Below, one piece after another: positions 3,158 through 47,282 of a DNA stretch of 64,000 nucleotides. The notes below the pieces were generated by a model. It did no database searches and was not told where the DNA came from. It saw only the letters and a list, made by a program, of their open reading frames with translations. Source of the DNA: a bacterium (GTDB taxonomy: Bacteria; Patescibacteriota; Minisyncoccia; Phycocordibacterales; UBA2100); contig JAJXVV010000001.1 in NCBI GenBank assembly GCA_021781955.1, positions 26,688 through 90,687 of the forward strand, read 5' to 3'. The position numbers and the translations under genes are program-made. Every line of letters begins with the position of its first letter. Within the stretch, counting starts at the first letter, position 1.

Positions 3158-3715
3158 TCATTTCCGGACGATCGACTGGAACAACGCAGGTGGCGAGATA
3201 CGTCGCAGCCACCATTCGTATTCGTAATCATTGCGCCGTGTGGCCTCGGCGATCATGCAGCGGGCGACGCGCGGAGACTTAACCGCTTTTGCATCGTTCA
3301 CTTCGATCGCTTTCACGACATTCGCGGCGATCATGCAGCCGAGACGATCGGCATCTCGCCGGATCTGCGCGTCATCGGTCTGCAGGAAGTAATCGAGCTG
3401 GGCAAAAACATCGTACGTGGATTCCGGGCCTTGCAATGACCAGTTCATGAACCCCTGATAGCTCGGGGTTAATCCGTTGTCCATGCAACGTACGGAGTTC
3501 ACATTGACTTCTGCGTCTGGCAGGTGAGCGACCGCGCGTATCTCGCTTCCAAACGCCTTTATCCGACCGTCGATCTGATACGCTTCCACCTCATCGGGGC
3601 TCACGAGACGCACCTGCCCGCACTCGACGGCACGCACTACGCTCGGCACTGCCGTGAGCAGCAGCATAGCGAGAAAACATATGATCCAGCGCATCTGTGC
3701 CTCCTCTTTTTGCAC
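3158..3715 (-). CDS. hypothetical secreted protein
   Basis: 185-aa ORF with an N-terminal signal-like segment (WIICFLAMLLLTAVPSVVRA). No recognisable domain. Confidence 0.45.
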   Translation of the reverse strand: MQKEEAQMRWIICFLAMLLLTAVPSVVRAVECGQVRLVSPDEVEAYQIDGRIKAFGSEIRAVAHLPDAEVNVNSVRCMDNGLTPSYQGFMNWSLQGPESTYDVFAQLDYFLQTDDAQIRRDADRLGCMIAANVVKAIEVNDAKAVKSPRVARCMIAEATRRNDYEYEWWLRRISPPALFQSIVRK

Positions 3716-3825
3716 GCTTTCTTTATTGCAAAGTGCAAAAGAACATCATTTACGAATCCTACTATCGTTAAATCCAACCCGCCTGTCAACCGCCATGACC
3801 TCAAAGCTGATCCCCCAGAGGACGG

Positions 3826-3882
3826 TCCTCTGTACAAAACTGTGGATAACACAGAGGACCGTCCTCTGGGGAAAATATCCTC
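3826..3882. repeat. inverted pair of 20/21-bp palindromic mini-elements (CCCAGAGGACSGTCCTCTGGG) separated by 17 bp
   Basis: CCCCAGAGGACGGTCCTCTG ... 17 bp ... CAGAGGACCGTCCTCTGGGG. Each arm is itself palindromic. The same 21-mer recurs inside rarA at 52567-52592. Confidence 0.8.
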
Positions 3883-3892
3883 GCAGAAACAC

Positions 3893-3917
3893 AAAACCCG
3901 CCTTGCGGCGGGTTTTG
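3893..3917 (-). terminator. rho-independent terminator (duplicate of the tuf terminator)
   Basis: Minus-strand CAAAACCCGCCGCAAGGCGGGTTTTG: GC-rich stem followed by a U-tract. Confidence 0.6.
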
Positions 3918-3940
3918 CTGCGATGCTTCGTTGGGAAGGG

Positions 3941-4147
3941 CTACGCGACGATCTTCGTCACGACGCCGGCGCCGACGGTCTTGCCACCCTCGCGGATGGC
4001 GAAACGCATCTGCTCTTCCATGGCGATCGGGCCCTGCAACTTGACCTTGAAGGTCACGGTGTCGCCCGGCATCACCATCTCCACGCCCTCCTTGAGGGTC
4101 ACCTCGCCGGTGACATCGGTGGTGCGGATGTAGAACTGCGGCTTGTA
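3941..4147 (-). pseudogene. tuf': truncated EF-Tu C-terminal fragment (tuf 3' remnant)
   Basis: Encodes the same C-terminal 68 aa as full-length EF-Tu (...[42 protein letters not shown]). Similarity stops abruptly at 4148, so no N-terminal part is present. Confidence 0.85.
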
Positions 4148-4200
4148 AGCACTAATGATTCCATGCTACAAAGAAGTCTGAGTAGGCAAAGGAGGTACGG

Positions 4201-4776
4201 ATGCGTAAGCATGCTCTTTTCCATGGTCGTTTTCAACCACCGTCAATCGCACACTTCGAAACACTTGGAACGATCCTGCAGAAGTGGGAACTGGTCACCA
4301 TCGGTGTTGTGTATGCAATTCCAAAACCAGCATGGCTGGACCCAAAATGGAACTCGTACGTAGAAGAAGTTCTGCAAACATACACCCCTGCTAGAAATCC
4401 GTTTTCCGCTCATGAACGAGTGCGCATGTGGAACGAATGCATCCGCCATTCCAACCTGACGGAACGCGTTCAATGCGTAGCGGCGCCAATTCCTTACTTT
4501 GACGAAAGCTTCAGTGAAGAATTCCCGCCTGAGGAATACGATTTCGTCAAACCAGAAGCTGAGAAACACGAGACCTTGGATTTATTGCGCGAACAAACCA
4601 CAGCGCAGATTCTAAATCGTTCGCTTTTTACGGTCCGACCGCAATGGAAGTTGCACGTGACCGAAATGCGCAATCTTGTGTCGCAAGGAGCACAGTGGCA
4701 CAAGTTCCTTGCGCCCGGAATCGGCGATGTGTTCTCGGAACTCAATGGCAACGAAAGGATGAGGGACCCTATATGA
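4201..4776 (+). CDS. cytidylyltransferase-like nucleotidyltransferase, archaeal NadM/NMNAT-like with divergent HxGH motif
   Basis: N-terminal FHGRFQPPSIAH resembles the GRFQPFHxGH signature of NadM-type NMN adenylyltransferases, though the HxGH is degenerate (SIAH). C-terminal TEMRNLV resembles the ISxTxxR motif. The gene sits in a visibly lower-GC region. Confidence 0.5.
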   Translation: MRKHALFHGRFQPPSIAHFETLGTILQKWELVTIGVVYAIPKPAWLDPKWNSYVEEVLQTYTPARNPFSAHERVRMWNECIRHSNLTERVQCVAAPIPYFDESFSEEFPPEEYDFVKPEAEKHETLDLLREQTTAQILNRSLFTVRPQWKLHVTEMRNLVSQGAQWHKFLAPGIGDVFSELNGNERMRDPI

Positions 4777-5215
4777 GGGTCCTTCTTTTTAGATCGGACA
4801 ATATGTCACGATCGCGCAAATTCTTAGGTAAATGCGAAAGAGAAAAATACCGAACTTCAGACACCTCTTTTTCGTCTGCTTTTAATTCTCCGGAAAGAGG
4901 CTTACATATAAATGGCAGACCAACAATCCACACCTCGTCCCCATTATCGTACGTATCTTTCATCGTATACACGCCAAGTAACTCATGCACCTTAACGATC
5001 AACCCGGTCTCTTCGAATACCTCTCGCTCGGCTGCTTGTTGCGGCGTCTCGTATAATTCGAGATACCCTGCGGGCAATGCCCATTGACCTTTCTTCTCGA
5101 TACGATGTATGAGCAACACTTCCTTCCTTTCGTTAAAAATAATTCCTGCCGCTGCGGTCAGAATCAAGGGCGCAGTGCCCACCTTGCTTCGTATCCACTG
5201 AATGTAATTATCCAT
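4769..5215 (-). CDS. NUDIX hydrolase
   Basis: Nudix box GYLELYETPQQAAEREVFEETGL matches GX5EX7REUXEEXGU. Convergent with, and overlapping, the nucleotidyltransferase gene. Confidence 0.8.
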   Translation of the reverse strand: MDNYIQWIRSKVGTAPLILTAAAGIIFNERKEVLLIHRIEKKGQWALPAGYLELYETPQQAAEREVFEETGLIVKVHELLGVYTMKDTYDNGDEVWIVGLPFICKPLSGELKADEKEVSEVRYFSLSHLPKNLRDRDILSDLKRRTLI

Positions 5216-5419: not shown

Positions 5420-6619
<1,200 letters not shown>

Positions 6620-6907: not shown

Positions 6908-9142
6908 CTAGAGCTCATTGAATGCCGGCACGACGTTGACCACCTGTGACTGTGAGGATGCCGTACCGTTGAGCAGATCTGTGCACGAGAGCGTGAAGGT
7001 CGTTTGTCCTTGGATCGGGTCCGAGAGTGTGTCGGTCGCTGAGAGTTCGGTCCAGACGACGGAGGTGGCGGTGTTGGAAACAGCGCAGGTCTTCATGTAG
7101 GAGGTGCTCCACGACACTTTGACCTGGGTGCCCTTTTTGACCAGGGTCGGCTTCACGGTGAAAGAGCCGACGATCCCTGGCGGGACCGTATTGCATGTGT
7201 CGGTGGAACCGGAGCAGCCGAACAGGCAAAAATTGGTCATGGCGCTGGTGCAGCTGTTATGCAAGTTGCCATCCGACCCGCAGATGTTCGTGGGTACACA
7301 CTGAGCAGATATGCACTGGCCGGCCTGGTTGCAGCCGGCAGCACAGACCTGCGTGAGCGTCCCGGTGCAGGCATTGTAGAGGTTGCCGTCGGCCCCGCAG
7401 GTGTCGCTGAGCGTGCAGGTGTTCGGGTTGCATTGGTTGGTCGTCGTGGAGCAGCCGTATCCGCCGCAGCTCGTTTCAGTGCCGCAAGAGTTGGCGATGT
7501 TGCCGTCGGCCTGGCAGCTCATGATTACATTGCCGCTGCTGTCGGTTTGAGGAATGCAGGTGTTGGAGGAGCTGGCAGAGGAGCAGGTGGCGGTTTGGGG
7601 AGTAGCGTTTGGTGACGAGCTCGATGCGGTCCACGTTATGTTCACCGCACCATCACCACCAGCACCACCTCCCGTTCCGATCGGCGTGTTTTGACCACCA
7701 GCACCCACCACAACAGGGATGGATGCGCCCGCCGTGAGATCACCGGCATTGTAGGCTTTTTCTACATAGCCGCCGGAGCCACCGCCGAGACAGGCGACAA
7801 GCCACCAGATGCCGCCGGAACAGCCGCCTCCGCCGCCCGGCGCCACGCCGTTCCAATTCGGGTTTGCGGTCATGTTCGGACTGTACCCGCCGATACCGCC
7901 ATTGGGTGCGCTACCGCCGACGGCGGTTATGTGGGTCGGGTCAACGCTCCAATCAGGCAAATTGCCAGGAATGTTCACGTCCCCCCCTGAGGCGGAACCG
8001 CCGGAGACGTATTGACCTCCAACACCCCCACCCCCGCCTGCGATGAGCGTGCCGTTGAACGTAGAGTTACCGCCGAAGGTGCCGTACTGATCGCCATATA
8101 GTATGGATCCGATGGCGCTGTGCTGTCCGCCACCCCACGCTTGGACGGTGAGGGTGCCGTATCCTCCTTGTGGGACGGTGAAAGAATATGAGCCGGGAGT
8201 GGTGTAGGTTTGGGAGCCTGCATTGCTGGTATTCGCGATCACACATTGCGTCCTGTTCGCGCTCAAGGTCGAGCCTGTTGGGCAGCTATACACCGTACCC
8301 GTGTAAGTGCCTGATGGCACGACCGCTGAACCGGAATTGCTAACGTCACCGATACTTTGAATGAAGAAATCGTTCGGCTGGCCGGTCGAAGACCATGAAA
8401 GCGTCTGGGTCTGACTGCTCGACGCGGCAGTGGGATTCGTAACGAGCGAACAGGACAATGATCCTGTGCTTGGTGACGAGGTCGACGCGGTCCACGTTAT
8501 GTTCACCGCACCATTACCACCATAGCCAGTCCCATAAGCGTTCGGTGTGCTTGTATCACCAGCACCCACCACAACAGGGATGGATGCGCCCGCCGTGAGA
8601 TCACCGGTATTGTAGGTTTTTTCTACATAGCCGCCGGAGCCACCGCCGAAACAGGCGACAAGCCACCAGATGCCGCCGGAACAGCCGCCTCCGCCGCCCG
8701 GCGCCACGCCGTTCCCATTCGGGTTTGCGGTCATGTTCGGACTGAACCCACCGATACCGCCATTGGGTGCGCTACCGCCTATGGCGGTTATGTTGCCATA
8801 ACCCTCGATGGGCATGTTGCCAGGAGTGTTCACGTCCCCCCCTGAGGCGGAGCCGCCGGAGATGTATTGGCCTGGAACGGTCCCTCCTCCGCCTGCGATG
8901 AGCGTGTTGTTGAACGTAGAGCCCGCGCCGGGGGTGGCGTACTGATCTCCATATAGTATGGTCCCGATGCCACCGTGCTGTCCGGCGCCCCACACTTGGA
9001 CGGTGAGGGTGCCGTAGCTCGGGACGGTGAAAGAATATGAGCCGGGAGTGGTGTAATTTTGGGAACCCGCCAGAGCGGCAAGCGGCATTGCGATCACGAG
9101 CACGGAAATCAGCGAGAGAATGGATCGTTGGTTCATGCGCAT
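6908..9142 (-). CDS. secreted glycine-rich-domain protein (tandem Gly_rich-like modules + Cys-rich EGF-like region + C-terminal beta domain); paralog of 44758-46572
   Basis: 744 aa with signal peptide. Two internal repeats of about 230 aa (SYSFTVP..GTLTVQVWGAGQHGGIG...GGGGGCSGGIWWLVAC.GGGSGGYVEK) resembling the 'glycine rich protein' domain. C-terminal Cys-rich segment and final 100-aa domain align closely with the protein at 44758-46572. Confidence 0.7.
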   Translation of the reverse strand: MRMNQRSILSLISVLVIAMPLAALAGSQNYTTPGSYSFTVPSYGTLTVQVWGAGQHGGIGTILYGDQYATPGAGSTFNNTLIAGGGGTVPGQYISGGSASGGDVNTPGNMPIEGYGNITAIGGSAPNGGIGGFSPNMTANPNGNGVAPGGGGGCSGGIWWLVACFGGGSGGYVEKTYNTGDLTAGASIPVVVGAGDTSTPNAYGTGYGGNGAVNITWTASTSSPSTGSLSCSLVTNPTAASSSQTQTLSWSSTGQPNDFFIQSIGDVSNSGSAVVPSGTYTGTVYSCPTGSTLSANRTQCVIANTSNAGSQTYTTPGSYSFTVPQGGYGTLTVQAWGGGQHSAIGSILYGDQYGTFGGNSTFNGTLIAGGGGGVGGQYVSGGSASGGDVNIPGNLPDWSVDPTHITAVGGSAPNGGIGGYSPNMTANPNWNGVAPGGGGGCSGGIWWLVACLGGGSGGYVEKAYNAGDLTAGASIPVVVGAGGQNTPIGTGGGAGGDGAVNITWTASSSSPNATPQTATCSSASSSNTCIPQTDSSGNVIMSCQADGNIANSCGTETSCGGYGCSTTTNQCNPNTCTLSDTCGADGNLYNACTGTLTQVCAAGCNQAGQCISAQCVPTNICGSDGNLHNSCTSAMTNFCLFGCSGSTDTCNTVPPGIVGSFTVKPTLVKKGTQVKVSWSTSYMKTCAVSNTATSVVWTELSATDTLSDPIQGQTTFTLSCTDLLNGTASSQSQVVNVVPAFNEL

Positions 9143-9143
9143 A

Positions 9144-9584
9144 TCATTTGACTGTTATCGTCGCGCTCTGCTGCGCACCATCGGAGAACGATGTGGTACC
9201 GGCTTGCGCGAACGTATATTGCCAGAAATCGCCCGCCTGGAGCGTGGGGGCTCCAGGGATCGAGAGCAAAAGCGGCCGAGATGAGGCGTTGAAGAAACGA
9301 ATGGTGCTCCCTGTGCTGATGGTCGCGACGGCCGGTACAAAGCCCTGATCGGTGTAGGAAACCAAGAGCGCGAACGGCTTATCTTGGAGCGCTTGCGTGC
9401 TGTGCTCCGGTGTGAAGGGTGTTTGAGGCAATGTTCTCGTTTGCTGCGCGCGGAGCGGTTGCGATACCGGTCGGTTCACCAAAAAAGCACCGACTGCGGC
9501 GACGAGCACGAACAAAACCGCGGCGACTGCGGCGACGAGCACGAGGAACGCAACGTATGTGCGGATGGAGTGGCGCGGGTGCAT
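9144..9584 (-). CDS. small membrane-anchored protein with cupredoxin-like beta-domain (no metal ligands evident); paralog of 46585-47037
   Basis: 146 aa. N-terminal TM helix, then about 100 aa ...LVSYTDQGFVPAVATISTGSTIRFFNASSRPLLLSIPGAPTLQAGDFWQYTF..ATITVK. Gene is immediately upstream of the Gly-rich protein gene. The same arrangement occurs at the second locus. Confidence 0.55.
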   Translation of the reverse strand: MHPRHSIRTYVAFLVLVAAVAAVLFVLVAAVGAFLVNRPVSQPLRAQQTRTLPQTPFTPEHSTQALQDKPFALLVSYTDQGFVPAVATISTGSTIRFFNASSRPLLLSIPGAPTLQAGDFWQYTFAQAGTTSFSDGAQQSATITVK

Positions 9585-9646
9585 GCCGTTCCATTATATG
9601 CCGTGCATGCCGACACAACGGCGGTTATCCACAACAGTCCAAGCTG

Positions 9647-11788
9647 CTATTTGCGGCTCGCAACGATCTCCTCCTGCACGTTGCGCGGCACAACCGCGTA
9701 GTGGCTGAACTCGAGGTTCGGCACGCCGCGACCCTCGGTGAGGGAACGCAGTTGCGTAGTGAAGCCGAAGAGCTCCGAGAGCGGTACCTTGGCGGTGATG
9801 ACGCGTGCCTGGCCGCGCTCGCCCATCGCCTCGATGCTTCCGCGCTTGGCGTTTATCATGCCGGTTACGTCGCCCATGAACTTCTCCGGCGTGACAACCT
9901 CGAGCTTCATGATCGGCTCGAGAATGACCGGTTTCGCTTTCTGCATCGCGTCCTGGAACGCGTTGAGCGCGGCGAGCTTGAATGCTATTTCGGACGAATC
10001 GACGTCGTGGTAGGAGCCGTCGTACAGGTCGACCGAGATGTCGACGACCGGGAAACCGGCCAGGACGCCGCGGTCCATCGCTTCCTTGAGTCCTTTCTTG
10101 ATAGCCGGAATGTACTCCTGCGGAATGACGCCTCCCTTGATATTGTTGACGAACTCGAAGTGGTCCTCGCGGTCGACGTTATTCTTGATCTTCCCGCCCT
10201 CGACGACCGGCTCGAGTGGCTTCACGCGGATCTTCACGTGGCCGTACTGGCCGCGGCCGCCCGTCTGCTTGATGTGCTTGTACTCCACGTCGGACGTGCC
10301 CTGGATGGTCTCGCGGTACGCGACCTGCGGCTTGCCGGTCGAGGCCTCGACGTTGAACTCGCGCTTCATGCGGTCGACGAGGATCTCGAGGTGCAGCTCG
10401 CCCATGCCGGAGATGATCGTCTCGCCGGTCTCCGGATCTGACTTGACGCGGAAGGTCGGGTCCTCGTCGGAGAGGCGCGAGAGCGCGATACCCATCTTCT
10501 CCTGATCGGCCTTGGTCTTCGGTTCGATGCGCATCGACACGACCGGTTCCGGAAAGACGATGCTTTCGAGCGCGATGGGATGTTCCTGATCGCAGACGGT
10601 CTGACCGATCTTGACCTCTTTCATGCCGACGAACGCGGCGATCTCGCCCGCGTAGACGGTCTTCACGTCCTCGCGCTTATCGGCCTGCAATCGCACGATG
10701 CGGCCGACGCGCTCTTTCTTGTTGTTCGCGGAATTGTACGCGGTCTGCCCCGCCTCGAAGGTGCCTGAGTAGACTCGGAAGAACGAGAGCGAACCGACGA
10801 ACGGGTCCACCTGCAGCTTGAACACGAGCGCCGCGAAAGGTTCTGCGTCGGAAGCGTGGCGCTCTTCCTGCGCGCCGGTGTCGGTATTGATGCCTTTGGC
10901 GGGCGGGAGGTCGAGCGGGCTCGGCAAATAGTCGACGACTGCGTCGAGGACGAGTTGCACGCCCTTGTTTTTGAGCGAAGAGCCCGTGAGCACCGGGAAG
11001 ATCTGGTTGGCGATGACGCCTTTGCGGAGCGTTTTCTTGAGCGTGTCGAGCGGGATCTCCTTGCCCTCGAGGTAGTCGTTCATGACCGCGTCGTCCGCCT
11101 CGACGATGCGCTCGACGAGTTCGTGGCGGTACTTCTCGGCATCGGCCTTGTACTCATCAGGGATATCGTAGGCTCTCACCTCTTTGCCCATCTCGCCCTC
11201 GAACTTGTACGCCTTCATGGTGAGGAGGTCGATAACCCCCTCGAACCGGTCCTCCGCGCCCATCGGTATCTGCAGGCGCACCGCTTTCGTGGAAAGACGG
11301 TCGAGGATGGAGGCGTACGATTTCTCAAAGGACGCGCCCGTGCGGTCGAGCTTATTGATGTAGCAGATGCGCGGCACCTCCGCCTCTTCGGCGTAGCGCC
11401 AGTTGGTCTCACTTTGCGGCTCGACGCCCGCGACGCCGTCAAAGACGACGACCGCGCCGTCGAGAACGCGCATGGAACGCTTCACCTCTGAGGTAAAGTC
11501 GATGTGCCCCGGGGTGTCGATGATGTTGAAGCGGTGCTTGAAGCTCGTGTCGGCACCCATGTACGAAGGGTTCCAGAAACACGTAATTGCGGCGGCCGTG
11601 ATGGTGATGCCGCGCTCGCGCTCCTGCTCCATCCAGTCGGTCACGGTGTCGCCCTCGTGGACCTCGCCGATCTTGTGCGACATGCCGGTGTAGTAGAGGA
11701 TGCGCTCCGAGGTGGTCGTCTTGCCGGCATCGACGTGCGCGACGATGCCGAAGTTGCGGACTTTCTCCAATGGGTAATCCCGTGACAT
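9647..11788 (-). CDS. fusA: elongation factor G
   Basis: 713 aa. [35 protein letters not shown]... full-length EF-G. Confidence 0.97.
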
Positions 11789-11888: not shown

Positions 11889-12608
11889 TCACGACCTCGC
11901 AGCTCGCTTGCGGCGCGCGTGCCAGAGCGCGTCGGGGAAGAGCCTCTCCTGCATTGCGTCGCCGGCGAGCCCGAGCAAAATGAGCGCCACCGAGAAAAGG
12001 CACCACACTGCGGGCCATTCTTGCGGATTCTGTGTCGTCGCGTACGCGAGCACCGGCCCTACGAGCGCGAAGAGCACGCCGCGCCATGCGCCGTAGAAGA
12101 GCGGTAACACGAAGACCGCGAGCGCGTAGTAAATGAAGAGATCGCCGGGCAAGGGCGAGTTGAAGAGCGGGACGCTCCACGCGATATGCCACGTACCGCG
12201 TACCGTGCACCACACCGGTCCGCAGAGCGTCTGTCCGATCGTGCACATGGTCCCCGGTATGAGCGGTATCGCCTTGACGAGCATGAGGAACGAGAAGACG
12301 GTCGCGGCCGCGTAGATGATGCGCTTCGTCGCCGCCCGTATCCGCGAACCGCGTGAATAAATGTAAAGCATGTTGAAAAATATCGGCTGGAACGCGATAT
12401 GCACGTAACTCAGCATCGTGATGTATTGATTGACGGGCAGATCGCACTGATCGATGTGCTGGTAGCCGAAGAATTGCAGGAACTCCATCAGCGAGAAGTA
12501 CACCAGCGGCGCAACGAGGCCTTTCGTCCCCTCTTTGCGCGCGAGGCACACGGCGGTCGCGACACCTGCGACCCCGAGCGTGACCGATGCCTCGGGCGAC
12601 CAACACAT
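11889..12608 (-). CDS. hypothetical polytopic membrane protein
   Basis: 239 aa with about 6 predicted TM segments, no recognisable family. Lies between fusA and the S53 peptidase gene inside the str-operon region. Confidence 0.45.
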   Translation of the reverse strand: MCWSPEASVTLGVAGVATAVCLARKEGTKGLVAPLVYFSLMEFLQFFGYQHIDQCDLPVNQYITMLSYVHIAFQPIFFNMLYIYSRGSRIRAATKRIIYAAATVFSFLMLVKAIPLIPGTMCTIGQTLCGPVWCTVRGTWHIAWSVPLFNSPLPGDLFIYYALAVFVLPLFYGAWRGVLFALVGPVLAYATTQNPQEWPAVWCLFSVALILLGLAGDAMQERLFPDALWHARRKRAARS

Positions 12609-12663
12609 ACGCGGTGGATTATACCGCCATTCGAAAAAGTCGGGGACGTAAGGATACTGCGGG

Positions 12664-13767
12664 TCAGAACACCGCGGTGAGCGGCGAACCCAAACCGGTT
12701 ACGTAATCATAATGTTTGCGCGCCGTGCAGAGGTAACCGCATGCACCATTTGCGCCAGAGGTAATGTCGCGAAAGTACGACGCCACACTCCCGCTGGATT
12801 TGTCCGCATAGAGCCGCGCGATCGTGACACCTCCCCCAAGCGCGGCGATTGCCGCCCATTGCGGTGAGCCCGCCGATGTGCCACCCACCTTCTTCCACGT
12901 GCCGAGCCGATAGACGGGAAAACCAGACGATGGATCGGCGTCGTACGACACGTCCGGTATGGCGCGCATGCCGCCCGCCTTCGGTATCGAGTAGTCGGAC
13001 TGGAACGATGGCTCTTGTTCATAGGCCGAAATACCGCCGCCAGAGCCGCTCCATGCGGTTTCAGACAAGAACGAGCCGCCCGACGCGAGCGACACGTGCG
13101 TGCCGCCGACGCCGATGACTTCGGGCGACGCGGCTGGCCACGACGCGCCGGTGCCGTCGTCGCCGGAGGAGGCGAAGAATACTGCGCCCGAGACGCTCTT
13201 GAAATGCGGGTCGAGCGAGGTTTCCTCCGGAAACTCCGCGCCGCCCCAGCTCATCGAGACCGAAACAACGCCTTTGCGCGAAGCGGCATAATCGACCGCC
13301 TTGAGAAGATTCGCCCCGGAAGGATTCGTCGCTTCGACGAGGAGGATCTTCGCCTGCGGCGCGATGGCGTGCGCCCACTCAACGTCGAGCGAGACTTCCA
13401 TCGCCCAACCGCCGCTCCCAGACATTTTGGAGCTCATCTTATGCTTCTCAAAGCAGCCGTTTCCGCTCGTGCACGCGGGCAGACCGAACTGCTTGCTGAA
13501 CACGGCGAGATCTCTTTCGATCGATGCGTCGTCGTACGCACCGATGATGGCTATGGTGCCCGCACCGCCGTTTCCCGGGAGATGGTACACTTTCTTTATC
13601 TCGTCCGGCGTCATTCCTTGTGGCGTTCTCGACGCCTTTCCGTACAAATGTATCGGCGGCTTCCCCTGATATTTCGAAAAATGGTACGAGGCGTCCGCTG
13701 CGAGCGGAGCGAACGTAAATGCTAAAACAGCGAACGCCGCGCATCCTTGCGCGAGACGTGACCCCAT
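12664..13767 (-). CDS. secreted sedolisin-like (S53/S8 clan) serine peptidase
   Basis: ASSGDDG and VGGTSAGSPQWAAIAAL motifs match the Asp and Ser regions of subtilase/sedolisin peptidases. Signal peptide MGSRLAQGCAAFAVLAFTFAPLAADA. The ORF is open to 13836; start chosen at the internal Met. Confidence 0.65.
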   Translation of the reverse strand: MGSRLAQGCAAFAVLAFTFAPLAADASYHFSKYQGKPPIHLYGKASRTPQGMTPDEIKKVYHLPGNGGAGTIAIIGAYDDASIERDLAVFSKQFGLPACTSGNGCFEKHKMSSKMSGSGGWAMEVSLDVEWAHAIAPQAKILLVEATNPSGANLLKAVDYAASRKGVVSVSMSWGGAEFPEETSLDPHFKSVSGAVFFASSGDDGTGASWPAASPEVIGVGGTHVSLASGGSFLSETAWSGSGGGISAYEQEPSFQSDYSIPKAGGMRAIPDVSYDADPSSGFPVYRLGTWKKVGGTSAGSPQWAAIAALGGGVTIARLYADKSSGSVASYFRDITSGANGACGYLCTARKHYDYVTGLGSPLTAVF

Positions 13768-13848
13768 ATAAAGAAGAGTATAGCAGCGCGGCGCCCGGCC
13801 TGAAGGCCGGGCGCCGCTTGTCTGTGTACTACTCAATGAGCAGCAACG

Positions 13849-14133
13849 TCATTTCTGCAGGGACGCGCCGAGCACCTTCTGTGCAAGTTCGGCGAGCGCC
13901 GGAGGCATCTTGGCCGGATCCAGCGTGCCGGTCGTGAGCTTGAGCACATCTGTCTTGCTCAAACGCCCGTCGGCGAGCATCTGCTGAATCTCACTCGCAA
14001 ACTGGGCGAGCTGGTCTTGCGTGATGCCACGCGCTTCAAGCTCCTTTTGCACCGTCTGCGGATCAATGCCGCCGAGCGCCTGCCCCGCCCCGGGCACCGC
14101 GCGCGCCTTGCTGAAGAATTTTGAGAAGTTCAT
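13849..14133 (-). CDS. hypothetical small protein
   Basis: 94-aa ORF between rpsG and the peptidase gene. No confident family assignment. Confidence 0.35.
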   Translation of the reverse strand: MNFSKFFSKARAVPGAGQALGGIDPQTVQKELEARGITQDQLAQFASEIQQMLADGRLSKTDVLKLTTGTLDPAKMPPALAELAQKVLGASLQK

Positions 14134-14211: not shown

Positions 14212-14673
14212 CTACCACGCGAAGTGCGCGAAAGCTTTGTTTGCCTCGGCCATGCGGTGGGTAGTCTCTTTCTTGGAAACGGCGGCGCCTTCGTTCTTGA
14301 TCGCGGCCTTGAGCTCGGCCAAGAGCGATTCGTTCATCGGCTTGCCCTTGGTACCCTCGGCCGCATCGACGATCCAACGCATGCCGAGCGCGAGCCGACG
14401 CTGCGGGTTGACCTCGCGCGGCACCTGGTAGTTGGCGCCGCCGACGCGGCGCGAGCGCACCTCGACGGTGGGTGACGCGTTCTCAAGCGCCTGTTCGAGG
14501 AGCGCGACCGGATCGCCGTCCTTCTTCAGATCATCCATGACCTTGTAGACGATCTTGCGAGCGGTATCCTTCTTACCGCGCTCCATCACGTAGTTGATGA
14601 GCTTCGCGACCTTGAACGAGTTGTAGATCTCGTCAGGCGAGGGTTGCTTGCGGTTTTTGACAGGGCGACGCAT
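14212..14673 (-). CDS. rpsG: 30S ribosomal protein S7
   Basis: 153 aa with S7 conserved core (…VRSRRVGGANYQVP…LAMRWIV…). Confidence 0.95.
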   Translation of the reverse strand: MRRPVKNRKQPSPDEIYNSFKVAKLINYVMERGKKDTARKIVYKVMDDLKKDGDPVALLEQALENASPTVEVRSRRVGGANYQVPREVNPQRRLALGMRWIVDAAEGTKGKPMNESLLAELKAAIKNEGAAVSKKETTHRMAEANKAFAHFAW

Positions 14674-43268: not shown

Positions 43269-43339
43269 GCGGGCATGGTTTAATGGTAGAACGCTACCTT
43301 GCCAAGGTAGAGATCGGAGTTCGATTCTCCGTACCCGCA
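43269..43339 (+). tRNA. tRNA-Gly (anticodon GCC)
   Basis: GCGGGCA..GTTTAATGGTAGAAC..CTACC-TTGCCAA-GGTAG..CGGAGTTCGATTCTCCG-TACCCGC-A. One C-A mismatch in the acceptor stem. Confidence 0.72.
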
Positions 43340-43467
43340 CAAACGTCAGCAGCCAGAATATCCAACCGTGAAGCCCCGAAATCAGTCGAGATCGGTTCGA
43401 TACCGCGATGCGTTGCTGGTCGAGAACCTGCAGGGATGGTTCGTGAAAAGGAGGTTGTGCGACCGCC
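43337..43467. repeat. 131-bp imperfect direct repeat, copy 1 (copy 2 at 44557-44688, about 85% identical)
   Basis: GCAC(A/G)…GTCAGCAGCCA(G/C)AATATC…GAAATCAGTCGAG…GATACCGCGATGCGTTGCTG…GGTTCGTGAAAAGG(A/G)G(G/A)TTGTGCGAC is shared by both copies. Copy 1 starts within the last 3 nt of tRNA-Gly(GCC). Confidence 0.8.
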
Positions 43468-44556: not shown

Positions 44557-44688
44557 GCACACGAGTCAGCAGCCACAATATCAAGCCGTGAGGCCTCGAA
44601 ATCAGTCGAGGTCGGCCGATACCGCGATGCGTTGCTGAGTGGAAACCTGCAGAGGTGGTTCGTGAAAAGGGAGTTGTGCGACGTCGCC
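44557..44688. repeat. 131-bp imperfect direct repeat, copy 2
   Basis: See copy 1. No ORF follows this copy. Confidence 0.8.
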
Positions 44689-44757: not shown

Positions 44758-46572
44758 TCAATTCTCTTTGAACACGGGTACGATATTGACCGTCTGACTC
44801 TGCGAAAGGGCCGGATTGATCGGATCGGTGCATGAGAGTGTGAACACCGTCTGTCTTTCGATGGGGTTCGATACTTGGCTCGTTCCCACGAGTCCGGTCC
44901 ACTGAAGCGCGTCGGCGCTGTTTGTAACGATGCAGGTCCTCATGCTCGCCACGTTCCACGACACCTTGACCTGCGTGCCTTTGGTGACCAAAGTCGGCGC
45001 GACGCTGAAACGAAGTATCTGCCCGGGGAGCTTCGTATTGCAGAGATTGGTCGTGGCGGAGCAGCCGTACTGGCAGCTCTGCTCGATTGCACCGGTACAG
45101 CTGTCGTGGATGTTGCCGTCCGACTCGCAGAGGCCGGTTGACACGCACCCGGTCTGGATGCACTTGCCGCTCTGAGTGCAACCGGCGACACAGGTCATAT
45201 CGAGCGCGCCCGTGCAGGCGTTGTAGAGGCTGCCATCGGTTTTGCAGAGGTCGGGGAGCTGGCAGCTCGCATTGCACTGGTTGGTGGCGGTGGAGCAGCC
45301 GTTGCCGCCACAGCTCGTTTCGGTGCCGCAGGAGTTGGCGAGATTGCCGTCGGCTTGGCAGATGAGGATGGAATTGCCCGAGGAGTCGACCTGCGGGGTG
45401 CAGGAGTTTGAACCGTTTCCGCCGACGGTGGCGGAACACATCGCGGTTTGAGGAGCAGTCAGATCGCCGCCCCAACTGATGACGACCGATCCGTCGATAT
45501 TCGACGGGGACCCTCCGCCCGTCGTCGTGGTGCAGCTCGATACGCCAGTGCCGTTACAGTAGCCCGAACCGCCGCCGCCGCCGCCGCCCGCAACGACCGA
45601 ATCCGCCGAGCACCATGCGCCGCCGCCGCCGCCCGCGCCGCCGTACAGGCCTCCGCCGCCGCCCGCGCCGCCCGCAAATCCGAGGAATCCGCCGTACCCG
45701 GCGCCGCCGTGCAACATAGTGCCGTTGGCACCGGCAAGCATTTCAGCATAGGCAATACCGCCGCTCGTCTGCGAGGCTCCTCCGCCCGGACTGCAGGACG
45801 AGAGCGCGTCGCCACCGGAAAGCCCCCCTCCAAAACCGCCGGTTCCGCTACCCGCTCCGCCCCCTCCGCCGCCAGCCGTCATTACATCGGCACCACCAAC
45901 GACGATCGCGCTGCGACCGCCGCCGCCATATCCGGTCGATAATAACTTGCTTGCTCCGTTTGCCCCTCCTCCGTATCCGCCGCCCACACCGCTGCCCGCT
46001 TTTCCTGCGATCACTGTCAACACCTGCCCGGGAGTAACCGCCAAAATCCCTTGCGTGTAGCCGCCATTGCCGCCGCCGCCCGAAACATACCTGATTCCGG
46101 TGATAGAATCCGCTACCACTTGCCCCTGGGCCCCGGCGCCTCCGGCACCCGTTAGCTCCACCCTCACGGAAGTAATCCCTTGTGGCACGGTAAACGTCTG
46201 ATCCGCGCCGGTCGCACTGAAGGTCTGGCTTTGCGTGCCGCCGCTCGAGGAAGTGCATGTCGAGCGATCCGCCGCCAACGCGTACCCGCTCGGACACGCG
46301 TAGACGGTGCCGGTGTAAACGACCGTGGTTTGCGATAACGGCACGGTCGTTGAGCCCGCGGTCGGAAAATCGCCAAGATACGGAATCGCCGGATCGGTCG
46401 AATCAATCGTGAAATCGATCGGATTGCCGGTCGACGACCACGTAAGCGTCGCGCTTTGGCTGGATGCGCCCGACATCGGAGCCGCGCTCAAGGTGCAGGC
46501 GAGATTCGCGAACGCGATGAGTGGAGTCGCCAAGCAAACGAACGGAAGCGCAAGTAACGAACGCCGGATCAT
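44758..46572 (-). CDS. secreted glycine-rich-domain protein (Gly_rich-like module + Cys-rich EGF-like region + C-terminal beta domain); paralog of 6908-9142
   Basis: 604 aa with signal peptide. QTFTVPQGITSVRVELTGAGGAGAQG…GGGGNGGYTQG…VTPGQVLTVIAGKAGSG matches the Gly-rich-protein domain pattern. The C-terminal 250 aa align residue-by-residue with the paralog (CQADGNLANSCGTETSCGG.GCST.TNQCN…KGTQVKVSW…). Confidence 0.7.
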   Translation of the reverse strand: MIRRSLLALPFVCLATPLIAFANLACTLSAAPMSGASSQSATLTWSSTGNPIDFTIDSTDPAIPYLGDFPTAGSTTVPLSQTTVVYTGTVYACPSGYALAADRSTCTSSSGGTQSQTFSATGADQTFTVPQGITSVRVELTGAGGAGAQGQVVADSITGIRYVSGGGGNGGYTQGILAVTPGQVLTVIAGKAGSGVGGGYGGGANGASKLLSTGYGGGGRSAIVVGGADVMTAGGGGGGAGSGTGGFGGGLSGGDALSSCSPGGGASQTSGGIAYAEMLAGANGTMLHGGAGYGGFLGFAGGAGGGGGLYGGAGGGGGAWCSADSVVAGGGGGGGSGYCNGTGVSSCTTTTGGGSPSNIDGSVVISWGGDLTAPQTAMCSATVGGNGSNSCTPQVDSSGNSILICQADGNLANSCGTETSCGGNGCSTATNQCNASCQLPDLCKTDGSLYNACTGALDMTCVAGCTQSGKCIQTGCVSTGLCESDGNIHDSCTGAIEQSCQYGCSATTNLCNTKLPGQILRFSVAPTLVTKGTQVKVSWNVASMRTCIVTNSADALQWTGLVGTSQVSNPIERQTVFTLSCTDPINPALSQSQTVNIVPVFKEN

Positions 46573-46584
46573 AGACCGCGATGT

Positions 46585-47037
46585 TTATTTGATCGTTATC
46601 GTACCACGCGAGCCGCTCGAGCCGTTGGAGAACGAGACGGTTCCAATCTGCGCGAAATCGGTTTGCCAGTACTCGCCTGGCTGGAGCGTCGGCGCTCCTT
46701 GAAGAGAAAGCGCGAGCGGCGTTGTGGAATTGTTGATAAAACGAACAGTGTCACCTGCCTTGATGGTCGCCGTTTGCGGCAAAAAACCTTGTCCAGCGTA
46801 CGAGACAATCAGCGCCAGCGATGTTCCTTTGAGCGCAGCCGTCCCGTGTTCCGCCACGAATGGTCCGGGGGACAAGCCATTGGCAACCTGTCGCGCATCC
46901 GTTGCGGGCGCAGGCTCGCGGCCGATGAAGCGCGTCCCGGCGGCAACGACCGCGTAGAATATCGCCGCAATAGCGACAACGAGGAGAAGAAGCGCGACGT
47001 ATGTGCGTATCGAGTGCCTTGGAATCACGGCGTTCAT
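46585..47037 (-). CDS. small membrane-anchored cupredoxin-like beta-domain protein; paralog of 9144-9584
   Basis: 150 aa. Shares PRHSIRTYVA-LLLVVA… TM anchor and …LIVSYAGQGFLPQTATIKAGDTVRFINNSTTPLALSLQGAPTLQPGEYWQTDFAQIGT…TITIK with the paralog. Confidence 0.55.
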   Translation of the reverse strand: MNAVIPRHSIRTYVALLLLVVAIAAIFYAVVAAGTRFIGREPAPATDARQVANGLSPGPFVAEHGTAALKGTSLALIVSYAGQGFLPQTATIKAGDTVRFINNSTTPLALSLQGAPTLQPGEYWQTDFAQIGTVSFSNGSSGSRGTITIK

Positions 47038-47210
47038 TGTACCAACCCGCGCACGCCGCCGCGCGGTTATTCACACGTATCCAACGACTACAATACCGTT
47101 CAAAATGCCTAGAAAGTAAGCCGGAAAATATCCGCAGGTGAATTAGCCATGTTTTCTCTGTACCTGATGTTCGAGGCACCATGGACGCATGAGCGGGCCG
47201 CTGACTGCTG

Positions 47211-47282
47211 TGCTCCCGCCAGGATTCGAACCTGGAACGACAGTTCCGAAGACTGTTGTGATATCCATTTCACCACGGGAGC
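47211..47282 (-). tRNA. tRNA-Arg (anticodon TCG)
   Basis: GCTCCCG..GTGA-AATGGATA-TCAC..ACAGT-CTTCGGA-ACTGT..CCAGGTTCGAATCCTGG-CGGGAGC-A. Confidence 0.8.

What the first reader, a model, noticed from the sequence alone, without database searches (positions are those of the whole stretch)
6908..9584. Two diverged paralogous cassettes: Gly-rich-domain Cys-rich secreted protein plus small membrane-anchored beta-domain protein (second copy 44758-47037)
The same two-gene module occurs twice: a small TM-anchored cupredoxin-like protein followed by a large secreted protein with Gly_rich-like modules, an EGF-like Cys-rich stretch and a C-terminal beta domain. Protein identity in the shared C-terminal about 250 aa is high, and DNA identity is around 80% in places. 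Copy 1 has two Gly-rich modules and copy 2 has one, so the cassette has diversified after duplication. Copy 1 is wedged between fusA and tuf inside the str-operon region. Copy 2 lies next to tRNA-Arg and close to the repeat-flanked locus at 43.3-44.7 kb. Gly-rich-domain proteins of this type also occur in phage tail fibres. A duplicated, diversifying surface-protein pair in a small genome suggests a cell-surface recognition, adhesion or host-interaction role; the membrane-anchored partner may be a chaperone or anchor.
Basis: partly seen in the sequence, partly recalled or inferred. Interest (0 to 1): 0.65.

Follow-up and report, generated by a model that had tools for sequence, protein, structure and literature searches.

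The report
Surface-protein and copper-less cupredoxin gene pair
A tiny uncultured bacterium carries two diverged copies of a gene pair, a secreted modular protein and a small membrane-anchored partner that looks like a copper protein without its copper site, and related species keep this pair next to their core translation genes, which suggests an undescribed way of displaying proteins on the cell surface.

Summary
B1 (9144-9584) with A1 (6908-9142), and B2 (46585-47037) with A2 (44758-46572), are paralogous pairs on the minus strand. B1 and B2 are 52% identical. The last ~255 aa of A1 and A2 are 57% identical. Both pairs recur in independent assemblies, so they are not an artefact.

B has an N-terminal membrane helix, a linker and a cupredoxin fold (profile hit to plastocyanin E 7e-9; Foldseek E ~2e-6). 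It has no copper ligands.

A has a signal peptide and variable glycine-rich modules. A1 has two recently duplicated Gly_rich_2-like modules. A2 has one ALK/LTK-GRD-like module. Neither passes Pfam thresholds directly; the family links rest on relatives.

A ends in a conserved module with no Pfam, NCBIfam or PDB sequence match. It has Cys-knot repeats, an Ig-like sandwich and an exposed tail P-x-[FYW]-x-E-x at the very C-terminus.

In related Kaiserbacteria-like genomes, close B homologs sit directly beside proteins with this C-terminal module. The pairs usually lie between fusA and tuf or just after rpsJ. B and the C-terminal module co-diverge (Mantel r 0.56-0.60).

Best reading, inferred: A is displayed on the cell surface by docking its C-terminal module onto membrane-anchored B. 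No prophage evidence was found. Interest is moderate.

The parts
9144..9584 (-). B1: membrane-anchored, copper-less cupredoxin-like protein (146 aa). Short basic N-terminus, TM helix at residues 7-35, linker, beta-sandwich at residues 73-145.
   Evidence: ORF. AF2 model with mean pLDDT 89. Foldseek hits to plastocyanin, Cupredoxin_1 and CupA at E ~2e-6. Family profile against PDB plastocyanin, E 7e-9. No Cys and no internal Met in the sequence.
6908..9142 (-). A1: secreted modular protein (744 aa). Its ATG lies one base after the B1 stop.
   Evidence: The exact protein is found in several assemblies.
9068..9142 (-). A1 signal peptide, residues 1-25 (...MPLAALA|GSQ).
   Evidence: Read from the sequence. 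The cleavage site is inferred; no predictor was run.
8492..9067 (-). A1 glycine-rich module 1, type 1 (residues 26-217).
   Evidence: 80% identical to module 2. Homologous modules match PF21722 Gly_rich_2 in 13 of 19 cases and phrog_863 in 9 of 19. The module itself has no Pfam hit.
8219..8491 (-). A1 middle region (residues 218-308), read from its sequence pattern as an Ig-like segment followed by a short Cys hairpin. It is equivalent to the A2 N-terminal region.
   Evidence: Alignment of A1 228-743 with A2 23-603. Weak cEGF hit in the equivalent part of A2 (E 0.0047, below cut-off). This region was not modelled, so 'Ig-like' here is a reading of the sequence.
7631..8218 (-). A1 glycine-rich module 2, type 1 (residues 309-504).
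   Evidence: 86.5% nt identity to module 1 over 614 nt.
7190..7561 (-). A1 Cys-rich region (residues 528-651): three tandem knots of about 35 aa, roughly six Cys each.
   Evidence: Cys positions. AF2 pLDDT about 65-80, small beta hairpins. No Pfam family.
6932..7162 (-). A1 C-terminal Ig-like beta-sandwich (residues ~661-737).
   Evidence: AF2 pLDDT above 90. Only generic Ig, PKD and FN3 matches in the PDB. Conserved W, C, L and C columns.
6911..6931 (-). A1 C-terminal tail VPAFNEL: the family motif P-x-[FYW]-x-E-x, ending the protein.
   Evidence: P and E are invariant in 17 sequences; in the larger set P is invariant and E nearly so. The motif is present in the adjacent CTD proteins of the other loci, one of which has two residues after the Glu. 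The tail lies beyond the last strand in the model.
46585..47037 (-). B2: paralog of B1 (150 aa as listed; an in-frame GTG at 47028 would give a start matching B1).
   Evidence: 52% identity to B1. Weak plastocyanin hits: TIGR02656 at E 3.7e-4 and phrog_515 at E 6e-4. Sequence.
44758..46572 (-). A2: paralog of A1 (604 aa).
45472..46233 (-). A2 glycine-rich module, type 2 (residues ~114-367), ALK/LTK-GRD-like.
   Evidence: 42% identity and 181 bits to P0009 residues 330-605, against shuffles at 65 +/- 6 bits. That P0009 module matches PF12810 at 2.9e-11. The A2 module alone gives only E 0.15 and 12.5 bits.
45037..45405 (-). A2 Cys-rich knots (residues 390-512).
44761..45009 (-). A2 C-terminal Ig-like domain and tail VPVFKEN (residues 522-604).

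Best explanation
Each cassette encodes two proteins that work together outside the cytoplasmic membrane.

A is exported by the Sec pathway. It has a cleavable signal peptide and an even number of Cys (28) in A1, 29 in A2, one of them inside its signal peptide. It is modular. The N-terminal part is a variable 'passenger' made of glycine-rich domains related to Gly_rich_2 and the ALK/LTK glycine-rich domain. The C-terminal part is conserved: small disulfide knots, an Ig-like sandwich, and an exposed seven-residue tail ending P-x-aromatic-x-E-x-COOH.

B is a type-II membrane protein: basic N-terminus inside, one TM helix, and a linker of about 35 residues. Its external domain keeps the cupredoxin fold but has lost every copper ligand, so it acts as a binding module and not as a redox protein.

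My proposal (inferred): the C-terminal module of A, through its tail, docks onto the cupredoxin domain of B. B thereby tethers A to the cell and points the glycine-rich modules outward, where they bind something on a partner cell or surface. One B can serve several A-type proteins.

The pair was duplicated as a unit in this lineage and both partners then diverged equally.

Shown here: the domain anatomy, the folds of B and of the C-terminal domain, the loss of copper ligands, the adjacency and co-divergence, and the recurrent location at junctions of the str and S10 operons.

Inferred: export and cleavage, physical binding of the C-terminal module to B, the direction of the relationship (anchor rather than chaperone), and the ligand-binding role of the Gly modules.
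For: Anatomy.

B fold and missing ligands:
- A profile of 40 B homologs hits plastocyanin 1bxu at E 7e-9.
- 17 of 40 homologs match PF13473.
- The B1 model has pLDDT 89, with the TM helix at residues 7-35.
- Foldseek gives E ~2e-6 and TM-score 0.64-0.70 to plastocyanin and to Cupredoxin_1 4hci. It also matches the membrane-anchored CupA (4f2e, E 1.3e-5, TM-score 0.61).
- Only F82, P84 and R96 are invariant across the family. No His, Cys or Met column is conserved.

C-terminal module:
- The alignments show an invariant P and an invariant or nearly invariant E at fixed distance from the C-terminus.
- The Ig-like part of the model has pLDDT above 90 and the tail lies outside the last strand.
- There is no Pfam, NCBIfam or PDB sequence match.

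Coupling of B and A:
- In 24 genome loci with a close B homolog, 16 have a protein with the C-terminal module or a type-1 Gly module directly adjacent on the same strand. Most of the rest are cut by the end of the stored block.
- Starting from the large protein, B is present in L004, L005, L125 and L127 but not in L128.
- The same C-terminal module carries a different passenger (DUF5648 plus PKD) directly after a B gene.
- Gene order varies (B-A, A-B, A-B-A) and the genomic site varies, yet adjacency is kept.
- Distances between B domains and between adjacent C-terminal domains correlate: Mantel r 0.60 over 20 pairs and 0.56 over 18 non-redundant pairs, permutation p 2e-4.
- The window's two pairs are each other's nearest relatives for both proteins, 57% and 57%.

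Rapid evolution typical of exposed proteins: B and the C-terminal module are 27-41% identical between genomes whose EF-Tu is 90-94% identical.
Against: - No direct test of binding was possible. The structure tool takes single chains only.
- All loci with the adjacency come from one clade (EF-Tu at least 90% identical). Shared ancestry therefore inflates both the adjacency count and the Mantel correlation.
- L128 carries a protein with the C-terminal module and no B within 10 kb.
- Some proteins with the C-terminal module have their own N-terminal hydrophobic segment (P0178, P0179, P0181, P0184, P0191, and the 499-aa gene of L125). If that segment is not cleaved, they would not need B as an anchor.
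- More distant B-like proteins sit beside unrelated genes such as recG and typA. The fold alone therefore does not imply this partnership.
- The Gly-module fold was not modelled, and A1 and A2 do not pass Pfam thresholds themselves.
Confidence: 0.45

Rival explanations
1. B is not an anchor. It is a membrane-tethered assembly or export helper. It transiently binds the C-terminal module to fold, hold or polymerise A, which is then released, attached to the wall by other means, or assembled into a fibre or layer through its own C-terminal tail.
For: The adjacency and co-divergence evidence is the same as for the main explanation. One B gene often accompanies two to four genes with the C-terminal module. 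Some proteins with the module have their own N-terminal hydrophobic segment. A conserved exposed C-terminal tail would also suit strand-exchange polymerisation.
Against: B has no catalytic or thiol motif that would help the folding of Cys-rich proteins; it has no Cys at all. Nothing in the model shows an incomplete sandwich in either partner.
Confidence: 0.25
2. The two genes are neighbours only by inherited gene order in one clade and have no direct functional link. B is a general small envelope protein of Patescibacteria, and A is an independent, rapidly evolving surface or secreted protein.
For: All positive loci belong to one clade with EF-Tu at least 90% identical. The wider B family has 510 cluster representatives, and many members lie beside unrelated genes such as recG and typA. 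L128 has A without B.
Against: Adjacency survives changes of order, of copy number and of genomic site: between fusA and tuf, after rpsJ, beside tRNA-Arg, and at non-ribosomal loci. The pair was duplicated as a unit in the window and both partners diverged equally. The passenger part of A can be swapped while the C-terminal module stays next to B.
Confidence: 0.17
3. The cassettes are remnants of a prophage or tail-fibre module. The glycine-rich proteins are phage receptor-binding proteins and the small gene is a tail-fibre assembly factor.
For: Relatives of the type-1 Gly module match phrog_863 'tail fiber assembly' (9 of 19, best E 1.3e-8) and minor tail protein families. Copy 2 lies between a tRNA-Arg gene and a tRNA-Gly-linked direct repeat.
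Against: A1, A2 and B1 have no PHROG hit, and B2 hits only a plastocyanin family. tblastn against 50,697 phage genomes finds nothing. IMG/VR contigs hold no close relative. The neighbours of copy 1 are fusA and tuf, and none of the neighbouring genes listed with Pfam hits in the loci examined is a recognisable phage gene. The position in the ribosomal operons is stable across species.
Confidence: 0.03
4. B is a working copper protein, either an electron carrier or a copper chaperone like CupA, and A is its redox or metal-handling partner.
For: B has the cupredoxin fold and the same TM-plus-cupredoxin layout as S. pneumoniae CupA.
Against: B1 and B2 contain no Cys and no Met apart from the initiator. 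No His, Cys or Met column is conserved among 40 homologs. In the printed alignments with plastocyanin, the stretch where plastocyanin carries its C-terminal ligand loop (Y-C-E-P-H, by my knowledge of plastocyanin) reads F-S-D-G in the B profile. No copper-transport gene is nearby.
Confidence: 0.03

Closest known systems
Cupredoxins (plastocyanin, amicyanin; Pfam PF00127 and PF13473 Cupredoxin_1) and the membrane-anchored copper chaperone CupA of Streptococcus pneumoniae (PDB 4f2e)
   Same: B has the same Greek-key beta-sandwich fold (Foldseek E ~2e-6, TM-score 0.64-0.70; profile E 7e-9). Like CupA, it has a single N-terminal TM helix followed by the cupredoxin domain.
   Different: All metal ligands are absent. 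B1 and B2 themselves do not reach Pfam thresholds. B is genetically tied to a secreted Ig-tailed protein, not to a copper pump.
Glycine-rich domains: Pfam PF21722 Gly_rich_2 and PF12810 ALK_LTK_GRD. From my own knowledge, the ligand-binding TNF-like / polyglycine-II domain of the receptor kinases ALK and LTK belongs to PF12810.
   Same: The A1 modules are 42-55% identical to modules that match PF21722. The A2 module is 42% identical to a module that matches PF12810 at 2.9e-11, and it aligns to nearly the full profile. Both types share the opening motif SQT[FY]..G...FTVP and the closing G.V.I.W strand.
   Different: A1 gives no direct hit and A2 only 12.5 bits. The fold was not modelled here. 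The setting is a bacterial secreted protein with a novel C-terminal module.
C-terminal sorting or anchoring domains of surface proteins: the T9SS C-terminal domain (TIGR04183), LPXTG/sortase, and PEP-CTERM or PGF-CTERM with exosortase or archaeosortase
   Same: A conserved module sits at the extreme C-terminus of otherwise variable secreted proteins. As with the T9SS C-terminal domain, it is an Ig-like sandwich. It is genetically linked to a dedicated membrane protein.
   Different: No NCBIfam model matches. No TM helix or basic tail follows the motif, because the protein ends one residue after the Glu. No sortase-like enzyme was noticed in the neighbourhoods I examined, though I did not search for one. 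The partner is a non-enzymatic cupredoxin-like domain.
Phage tail-fibre related glycine-rich proteins (phrog_863 'tail fiber assembly', phrog_416 and phrog_356 minor tail proteins)
   Same: Relatives of the type-1 Gly module match these families.
   Different: A1 and A2 do not match them. There are no phage neighbours and no tblastn or IMG/VR relatives.

Membership tests
Pfam PF12810 ALK_LTK_GRD / PF21722 Gly_rich_2 (glycine-rich domain) | Score at or above the Pfam gathering threshold for the protein itself | tested here: not met
   A1: no family at E<=1. A2 whole protein: none. A2 module alone: PF12810 at E 0.15 and 12.5 bits, against a cut-off of 24.5. A1 module alone: no family.
Pfam PF12810 ALK_LTK_GRD / PF21722 Gly_rich_2 (glycine-rich domain) | Significant homology to sequences that are members (transitive membership) | tested here: met
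   A2 module against P0009 residues 330-605: 42% identity and 181 bits, with shuffles at 65 +/- 6 bits. The P0009 module scores 44.3 bits, E 2.9e-11, on PF12810. The A1 modules are 42-55% identical to 17 related modules. Of all 19 modules scanned, 13 match PF21722, best E 3.2e-6.
Pfam PF12810 ALK_LTK_GRD / PF21722 Gly_rich_2 (glycine-rich domain) | TNF-like beta-sandwich with a lattice of polyglycine-II helices (known from ALK/LTK structures; my own knowledge) | not tested
Cupredoxin fold (plastocyanin/azurin superfamily) | Greek-key beta-sandwich superimposable on cupredoxins | tested here: met
   B1 model with pLDDT 89. Foldseek against the PDB: 105 matches at E<=1e-3. The top ones are plastocyanins, B. 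anthracis Cupredoxin_1 and amicyanin, with TM-scores of 0.6-0.7. Profile against PDB: E 7e-9.
Blue copper proteins / CupA-type copper chaperones | Metal ligands: His-Cys-His-Met for type-1 copper; Cys and Met for CupA | tested here: not met
   B1 and B2 have no Cys and no internal Met. No ligand column is conserved among 40 homologs.
Known C-terminal sorting signals (T9SS CTD TIGR04183, LPXTG, PEP-CTERM, PGF-CTERM, GlyGly-CTERM) | Match to the family model, or a motif followed by a TM helix and a basic tail | tested here: not met
   No NCBIfam or Pfam hit in the C-terminal 250 aa. The proteins end one residue after the conserved Glu.
Prophage or phage tail-fibre module | Homology to phage structural proteins together with neighbouring phage genes | tested here: not met
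   PHROGs: no tail or structural family hit for A1, A2, B1 or B2. tblastn against phage genomes: none. IMG/VR: none. The neighbours are fusA, tuf and a tRNA. Only relatives of the Gly module hit phrog_863.
S-layer proteins with SLH or other known anchoring domains | SLH or an equivalent Pfam anchoring domain | tested here: not met
   No such Pfam family in A1, A2 or eight homologs. Foldseek resemblance to Ig/PKD domains of S-layer proteins (1l0q, 8cka) is generic, E >= 1.7e-3.

The most novel reading that the evidence does not exclude
The C-terminal module (disulfide knot, Ig-like sandwich, P-x-aromatic-x-E-x-COOH tail) and the copper-less cupredoxin B form a previously unrecognised, enzyme-free sorting and anchoring system of Kaiserbacteria-like Patescibacteria. 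It would be a functional analogue of LPXTG/sortase or of the T9SS C-terminal domain. It would be kept at junctions of the str and S10 operons because it displays the cell's major surface layer or host-attachment proteins. The swappable glycine-rich (ALK-GRD-like) heads would be the part that recognises the host cell.
Probability: 0.25. Interest if true: 0.75.

Novelty: new variant of a known kind. Interest (0 to 1): 0.55.

Why it matters
Patescibacteria (CPR) are thought to live attached to other cells, and the few cultivated members do. Outside type IV pili, very little is known about the proteins on their surface.

This work defines a concrete two-component module: a membrane-anchored cupredoxin-like protein without copper, and a family of secreted proteins that share an undescribed C-terminal domain and tail. 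It shows that the two components travel, duplicate and diverge together.

It also shows that in one clade the module occupies junctions inside one of the most conserved gene orders in bacteria (rpsL-rpsG-fusA-tuf-rpsJ).

If the docking model is right, the C-terminal tail becomes a sequence tag for listing the surface proteome of these organisms from genomes alone. The variable glycine-rich heads become candidates for host-recognition determinants.

The work also adds a clear case of a cupredoxin fold reused as a non-metal binding module.

Tried and rejected
- Direct Pfam, NCBIfam and PHROG scans of A1 and A2 gave nothing above threshold.
- A profile of the type-1 Gly module against PDB sequences found no hit.
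- A profile of the type-2 module against PDB sequences hit only engineered poly-Gly linkers in mini-G proteins, which is spurious.
- A profile of the C-terminal module against PDB sequences found nothing significant.
- The word-indexed homolog search with B2 found only B2 itself. The full HMMER search was needed to see the family.
I replaced it with a hand-built degenerate DNA pattern for the B domain. That pattern fixes Y77, G81, F82, P84, G92, R96, F97 and N99, so conservation of those residues in the fetched loci means nothing.
- I first read the recurrence as spanning Saccharibacteria and Paceibacteria, from the record titles. I rejected this after finding that EF-Tu in all these loci is 90-94% identical to the window's, whatever the title says.
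- The afdb50 fold library was unavailable.
- Promoter and terminator scans were not above shuffle expectation, so I make no claim about co-transcription with fusA or tuf.
- Prophage and copper-protein readings are rejected for the reasons given under the rival explanations.
- Three literature searches, plus a term search inside the Cell 2023 Patescibacteria genetics paper (PMC10633639), found no description of this pair.


Full report
**1. The observation**

All four genes lie on the minus strand at the stated coordinates.

| Gene | Coordinates | Length |
|---|---|---|
| B1 | 9144-9584 | 146 aa |
| A1 | 6908-9142 | 744 aa |
| B2 | 46585-47037 | 150 aa |
| A2 | 44758-46572 | 604 aa |

- The A1 ATG starts one base after the B1 stop. 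B2 and A2 are 12 nt apart.
- B1 and B2 are 52% identical (E 8e-49).
- The last ~255 aa of A1 and A2 are 57% identical (E 1e-85). Without composition correction, all of A2 aligns to A1 residues 228-743 at 42%.
- DNA identity between the copies is 66-69%. It reaches 85.6% only in the best 90-nt window.
- Copy 1 lies between fusA (9647-11788) and tuf (5420-6619).
- Copy 2 lies 172 nt downstream of tRNA-Arg(tcg) at 47210-47282. It is about 75 nt from the second arm of a direct repeat (43337-43463 and 44557-44682, 85% identical) that starts at the 3' end of tRNA-Gly(gcc).
- The window comes from MAG GCA_027447065.1, contig DAIDRG010000002.1. The exact A1 and A2 proteins are also called in GCA_027428535.1 and in a Logan assembly, on 10 and 15 contigs. 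With about 67% DNA identity and independent recovery, an assembly artefact is excluded.

**2. The small protein B**

- The N-terminus is basic (MHPRHSIRTY) and is followed by a hydrophobic helix.
- The AF2 model of B1 has mean pLDDT 89. It gives a TM helix at residues 7-35, a linker, and a beta-sandwich at residues 73-145.
- A full HMMER search with the B1+B2 profile found 510 cluster representatives at E<=1e-3. Most are 140-170 aa and share this layout.
- A profile of 40 of them hits plastocyanin 1bxu at E 7e-9. Seventeen of the 40 match PF13473 Cupredoxin_1.
- Foldseek places the B1 model with plastocyanins and B. anthracis Cupredoxin_1 (4hci) at E ~2e-6, TM-score 0.64-0.70. Amicyanin and the membrane-anchored copper chaperone CupA (4f2e, E 1.3e-5) match slightly less well.
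- B1 and B2 contain no Cys and no Met beyond the initiator. Across the 40 homologs only F82, P84 and R96 are invariant.
- B is therefore a cupredoxin fold that has lost its metal site. It is tethered to the membrane with the domain outside; that topology is inferred from the positive-inside rule.

**3. The large protein A**

Both proteins start with a typical signal peptide (A1 ...PLAALA|GSQ; A2 ...PLIAFA|NL). They are rich in Gly (18-20%), Ser and Thr, and have 28 and 29 Cys.

*A1 layout:*
- signal peptide, residues 1-25
- Gly module, residues 26-217
- middle region read as Ig-like plus a Cys hairpin, residues 218-308
- second Gly module, residues 309-504
- three Cys knots of about 35 aa, residues 528-651
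- Ig-like domain, residues ~661-737
- tail VPAFNEL, residues 738-744

*A1 Gly modules.* The two modules are 80% identical in protein and 86.5% in DNA over 614 nt, so this is a recent internal duplication.

*A2 layout.* A2 lacks the first module. Its single Gly module (residues ~114-367) is a different subtype. It scores about 64 bits against the A1 modules. Shuffles run for a comparable query pair (the A2 module against the P0009 module) averaged 65 +/- 6 bits. A profile-profile comparison links the two subtypes only through the first 47 columns, the shared SQT[FY]..G...FTVP..L.V...G.GG opening.

*Family assignment.*
- Directly, A1 matches nothing in Pfam. The A2 module reaches only 12.5 bits on PF12810, against a cut-off of 24.5, although the alignment spans profile positions 11-203 of 243.
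- Indirectly, the links are solid. Thirteen of 19 type-1 modules, taken from relatives and from A1, match PF21722 Gly_rich_2.
- The A2 module is 42% identical (181 bits, about 20 SD above shuffles) to the second module of P0009. That module matches PF12810 ALK_LTK_GRD at 2.9e-11.
- P0009 itself combines an A1-type first half with an A2-type second module, so modules are shuffled between relatives.
- Nine of the 19 type-1 modules also match phrog_863 'tail fiber assembly'.

**4. The conserved C-terminal module**

- Aligning the last ~130 aa of 17 relatives, and then 26 sequences after a profile search, shows conserved columns. These are the Cys of the last knot, then P, W, C, V, W, L and C of the sandwich. 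The proteins end in P-x-[F/Y/W]-x-E-x, normally with exactly one residue after the Glu.
- The AF2 model of A1 residues 490-744 has pLDDT 78 overall and above 90 for the sandwich. The last strand ends at V737, so the seven-residue tail is exposed.
- Foldseek finds only generic Ig, PKD and FN3 domains, best E 1.7e-3.
- There is no Pfam, NCBIfam or PDB sequence match.
- The module is not tied to Gly-rich passengers. In L005 a 493-aa protein with DUF5648 and a PKD-like domain carries the same module and tail. Several proteins of ~226-229 aa consist of little more than a hydrophobic N-terminus, one knot and the module.

**5. Are B and A linked?**

*Starting from the large protein:*

| Locus | Finding |
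|---|---|
| L004 | B homolog just downstream of the A homolog |
| L005/L006 | B homolog directly upstream of another gene with the C-terminal module |
| L125 | fusA-B-A-...-B-A'-tuf |
| L127 | fusA-B-A-B'-tuf |
| L128 | no B within 10 kb |

*Starting from B.* A degenerate DNA pattern for the B domain retrieved 118 genome stretches of up to 8 kb. Of these, 106 held a B-like ORF. Local HMM searches then gave the following:
- 24 loci carry a close B homolog (E<1e-28).
- In 16 of them a protein with the C-terminal module or a type-1 Gly module lies directly adjacent on the same strand.
- Most of the remainder are cut off by the end of the stored block. Several of these show a truncated Gly-rich ORF.
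- Gene order varies (B-A, A-B, A-B-A), as does copy number.

*Co-divergence.*
- Over 20 adjacent pairs, B-domain distances and C-terminal-domain distances correlate: Mantel r 0.60, and 0.56 after removing two redundant pairs, permutation p 2e-4.
- The window's two cassettes are each other's nearest relatives for both proteins (57% and 57%). The pair was therefore duplicated as a unit in this lineage and both partners diverged equally.

*Other B-like proteins.* More distant B-like proteins (82 loci) sit in unrelated contexts, for example upstream of recG. One close B homolog (L105) sits next to typA.

**6. Ribosomal-operon context and an important caveat**

- Fourteen of the 24 close-B loci carry fusA, tuf, rpsJ, rpsG or rpsL on the same strand within the same block. 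Only 1 of the 82 distant-B loci does.
- Arrangements include fusA-B-A (L041), fusA-A-B (L040), B-A-tuf (L028, L067, L068) and fusA-A-B-tuf...rpsJ-B' (L061).
- In L023 the order is rpsL-rpsG-fusA-tuf-rpsJ-B. In L005 and L006 it is rpsJ-A-...-B-A'-rplC.
- The window's 'wedged' copy 1 is therefore the normal state for this group. The module sits at one of two junctions, fusA|tuf or rpsJ|rplC.
- Many of these MAGs are titled 'Candidatus Saccharibacteria'. Even so, EF-Tu in every such locus is 90-94% identical to the window's and EF-G is 84-88% identical, the same as for MAGs titled Kaiserbacteria.
- I therefore claim the arrangement only for one Kaiserbacteria-like clade. That clade covers at least 14 genome loci, drawn from a collection that holds one genome per species. 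I do not claim it across CPR classes.
- Within the clade, B and the C-terminal module are only 27-41% identical between genomes. They evolve far faster than the flanking translation genes.

**7. Transcription**

- Nothing is established. A TATAAT box lies 8 nt upstream of the B1 ATG.
- A TACAAT box lies 7 nt upstream of an in-frame GTG in B2. Starting there would give MIPRHSIRTY, which matches the B1 N-terminus. This may indicate the pair's own promoter and a near-leaderless message.
- After the A1 stop there is a promoter-like site (6851-6824) and a hairpin with a T-run (6817-6801) before tuf. The counts are not above shuffle expectation.

**8. Mechanism**

- *Shown:* the domain anatomy, the two folds, the loss of copper ligands, the exposed conserved tail, and the adjacency, unit duplication and co-divergence.
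- *Inferred:* A is exported. Its C-terminal module docks by the tail onto the cupredoxin domain of B. B holds A on the cell with the Gly-rich heads outward as binding surfaces.
- I put this at 0.45.
- The nearest rival, at 0.25, is that B is a tethered assembly helper rather than the final anchor.
- Mere inherited synteny gets 0.17.
- Prophage origin and a copper function get about 0.03 each. The reasons are no PHROG, tblastn or IMG/VR support and no metal ligands.

**9. Comparison with known systems and novelty**

- B works like a cupredoxin-fold adaptor, but it fails the metal-ligand test for blue copper proteins and for CupA.
- The Gly modules belong to the Gly_rich_2 / ALK_LTK_GRD family by transitive homology only.
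- The C-terminal module resembles known sorting domains in logic. The closest is the Ig-like T9SS C-terminal domain. It matches no model, however, and it has no TM segment after the motif.
- Three literature searches, and a term search inside the Patescibacteria genetics paper PMC10633639, found no description of the pair.
- I classify it as a new variant of a known kind: a cell-surface display module built from undescribed parts.
- Interest is 0.55. The finding is solid and gives a testable handle on CPR surface biology, but its function is inferred and it is so far confined to one clade.

Noticed in passing
window 11889-14133 (minus strand), between rpsG (14212-14673) and fusA (9647-11788): Three more non-ribosomal ORFs interrupt the str operon. 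They are a 94-aa protein (13849-14133), a 316-aa protein with a GTSAGSP motif reminiscent of subtilase or sedolisin serine peptidases (12664-13614, no Pfam on record), and a 239-aa DUF5765 membrane protein (11889-12608). In L125 a UDG gene and a 72-aa Gly-rich ORF occupy the same junction.
   Followed up: partly
window 43337-43463 and 44557-44682: A direct repeat of about 127 nt (85-86% identical, 1220 nt apart) begins at the 3' end of tRNA-Gly(gcc) at 43269-43340. It encloses a 249-aa ORF (43477-44226). This could be a small integrated element or a duplicated tRNA-flanking RNA. No Rfam family matches.
   Followed up: partly
window 9585-9646 and 47028-47060: A -10-like box lies 7-8 nt upstream of the likely start of both B genes: TATAAT before the B1 ATG, and TACAAT before an in-frame GTG in B2 that would make the two N-termini align. 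This suggests near-leaderless transcripts and a mis-called B2 start.
   Followed up: no
L005 1776-2135 and 4535-4894: Two nearly identical rpsJ (S10) genes lie in tandem, each followed by an A-type gene of about 700 aa. The unit [rpsJ + A] appears to have been duplicated inside the S10 operon of that organism.
   Followed up: no
L028, L059, L061, L067, L075, L009/L108 (record titles): MAGs titled 'uncultured Candidatus Saccharibacteria bacterium' have EF-Tu 90-91% identical to the window's, the same as MAGs titled Kaiserbacteria. The titles look like coarse or wrong taxonomic labels and should not be used to infer spread across phyla.
   Followed up: yes
L051, L054, L063, L091, L095, L114, L124 and others: A more distant subfamily of TM-plus-cupredoxin-like proteins sits just upstream of a 720-900 aa gene ending ...HFE. 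In L051 that gene reads as the helicase RecG, which I named from its sequence without running a search. This is a second conserved neighbourhood for the fold, of unknown meaning.
   Followed up: partly
P0178, P0179, P0181, P0184, P0191; L125 18648-20147: 'Minimal' proteins have a hydrophobic N-terminus, a conserved F-T-D-x-S..GL.IVPASCPS stretch, one Cys knot and the C-terminal module. The conserved stretch after the helix may be a processing site.
   Followed up: no
L004 763-1998, 2006-3589 and 3603-4850: Neighbouring proteins have an N-terminal TM helix, a conserved W-T-x-P-T-x-x-P-x-G-N...Q-V-K-A-G-G-L motif and a stalk. Two of them (763-1998 and 3603-4850) end in a type-1 Gly module. The same Gly head is therefore also mounted on N-terminally anchored fibres.
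   Followed up: no
window 4637-5173 (minus strand), just downstream of tuf: A 178-aa ORF with a signal peptide and several Cys, and no Pfam match, follows tuf where rpsJ would be expected. No S10 gene was called in the 4.5 kb after tuf that L002 covers.
   Followed up: no
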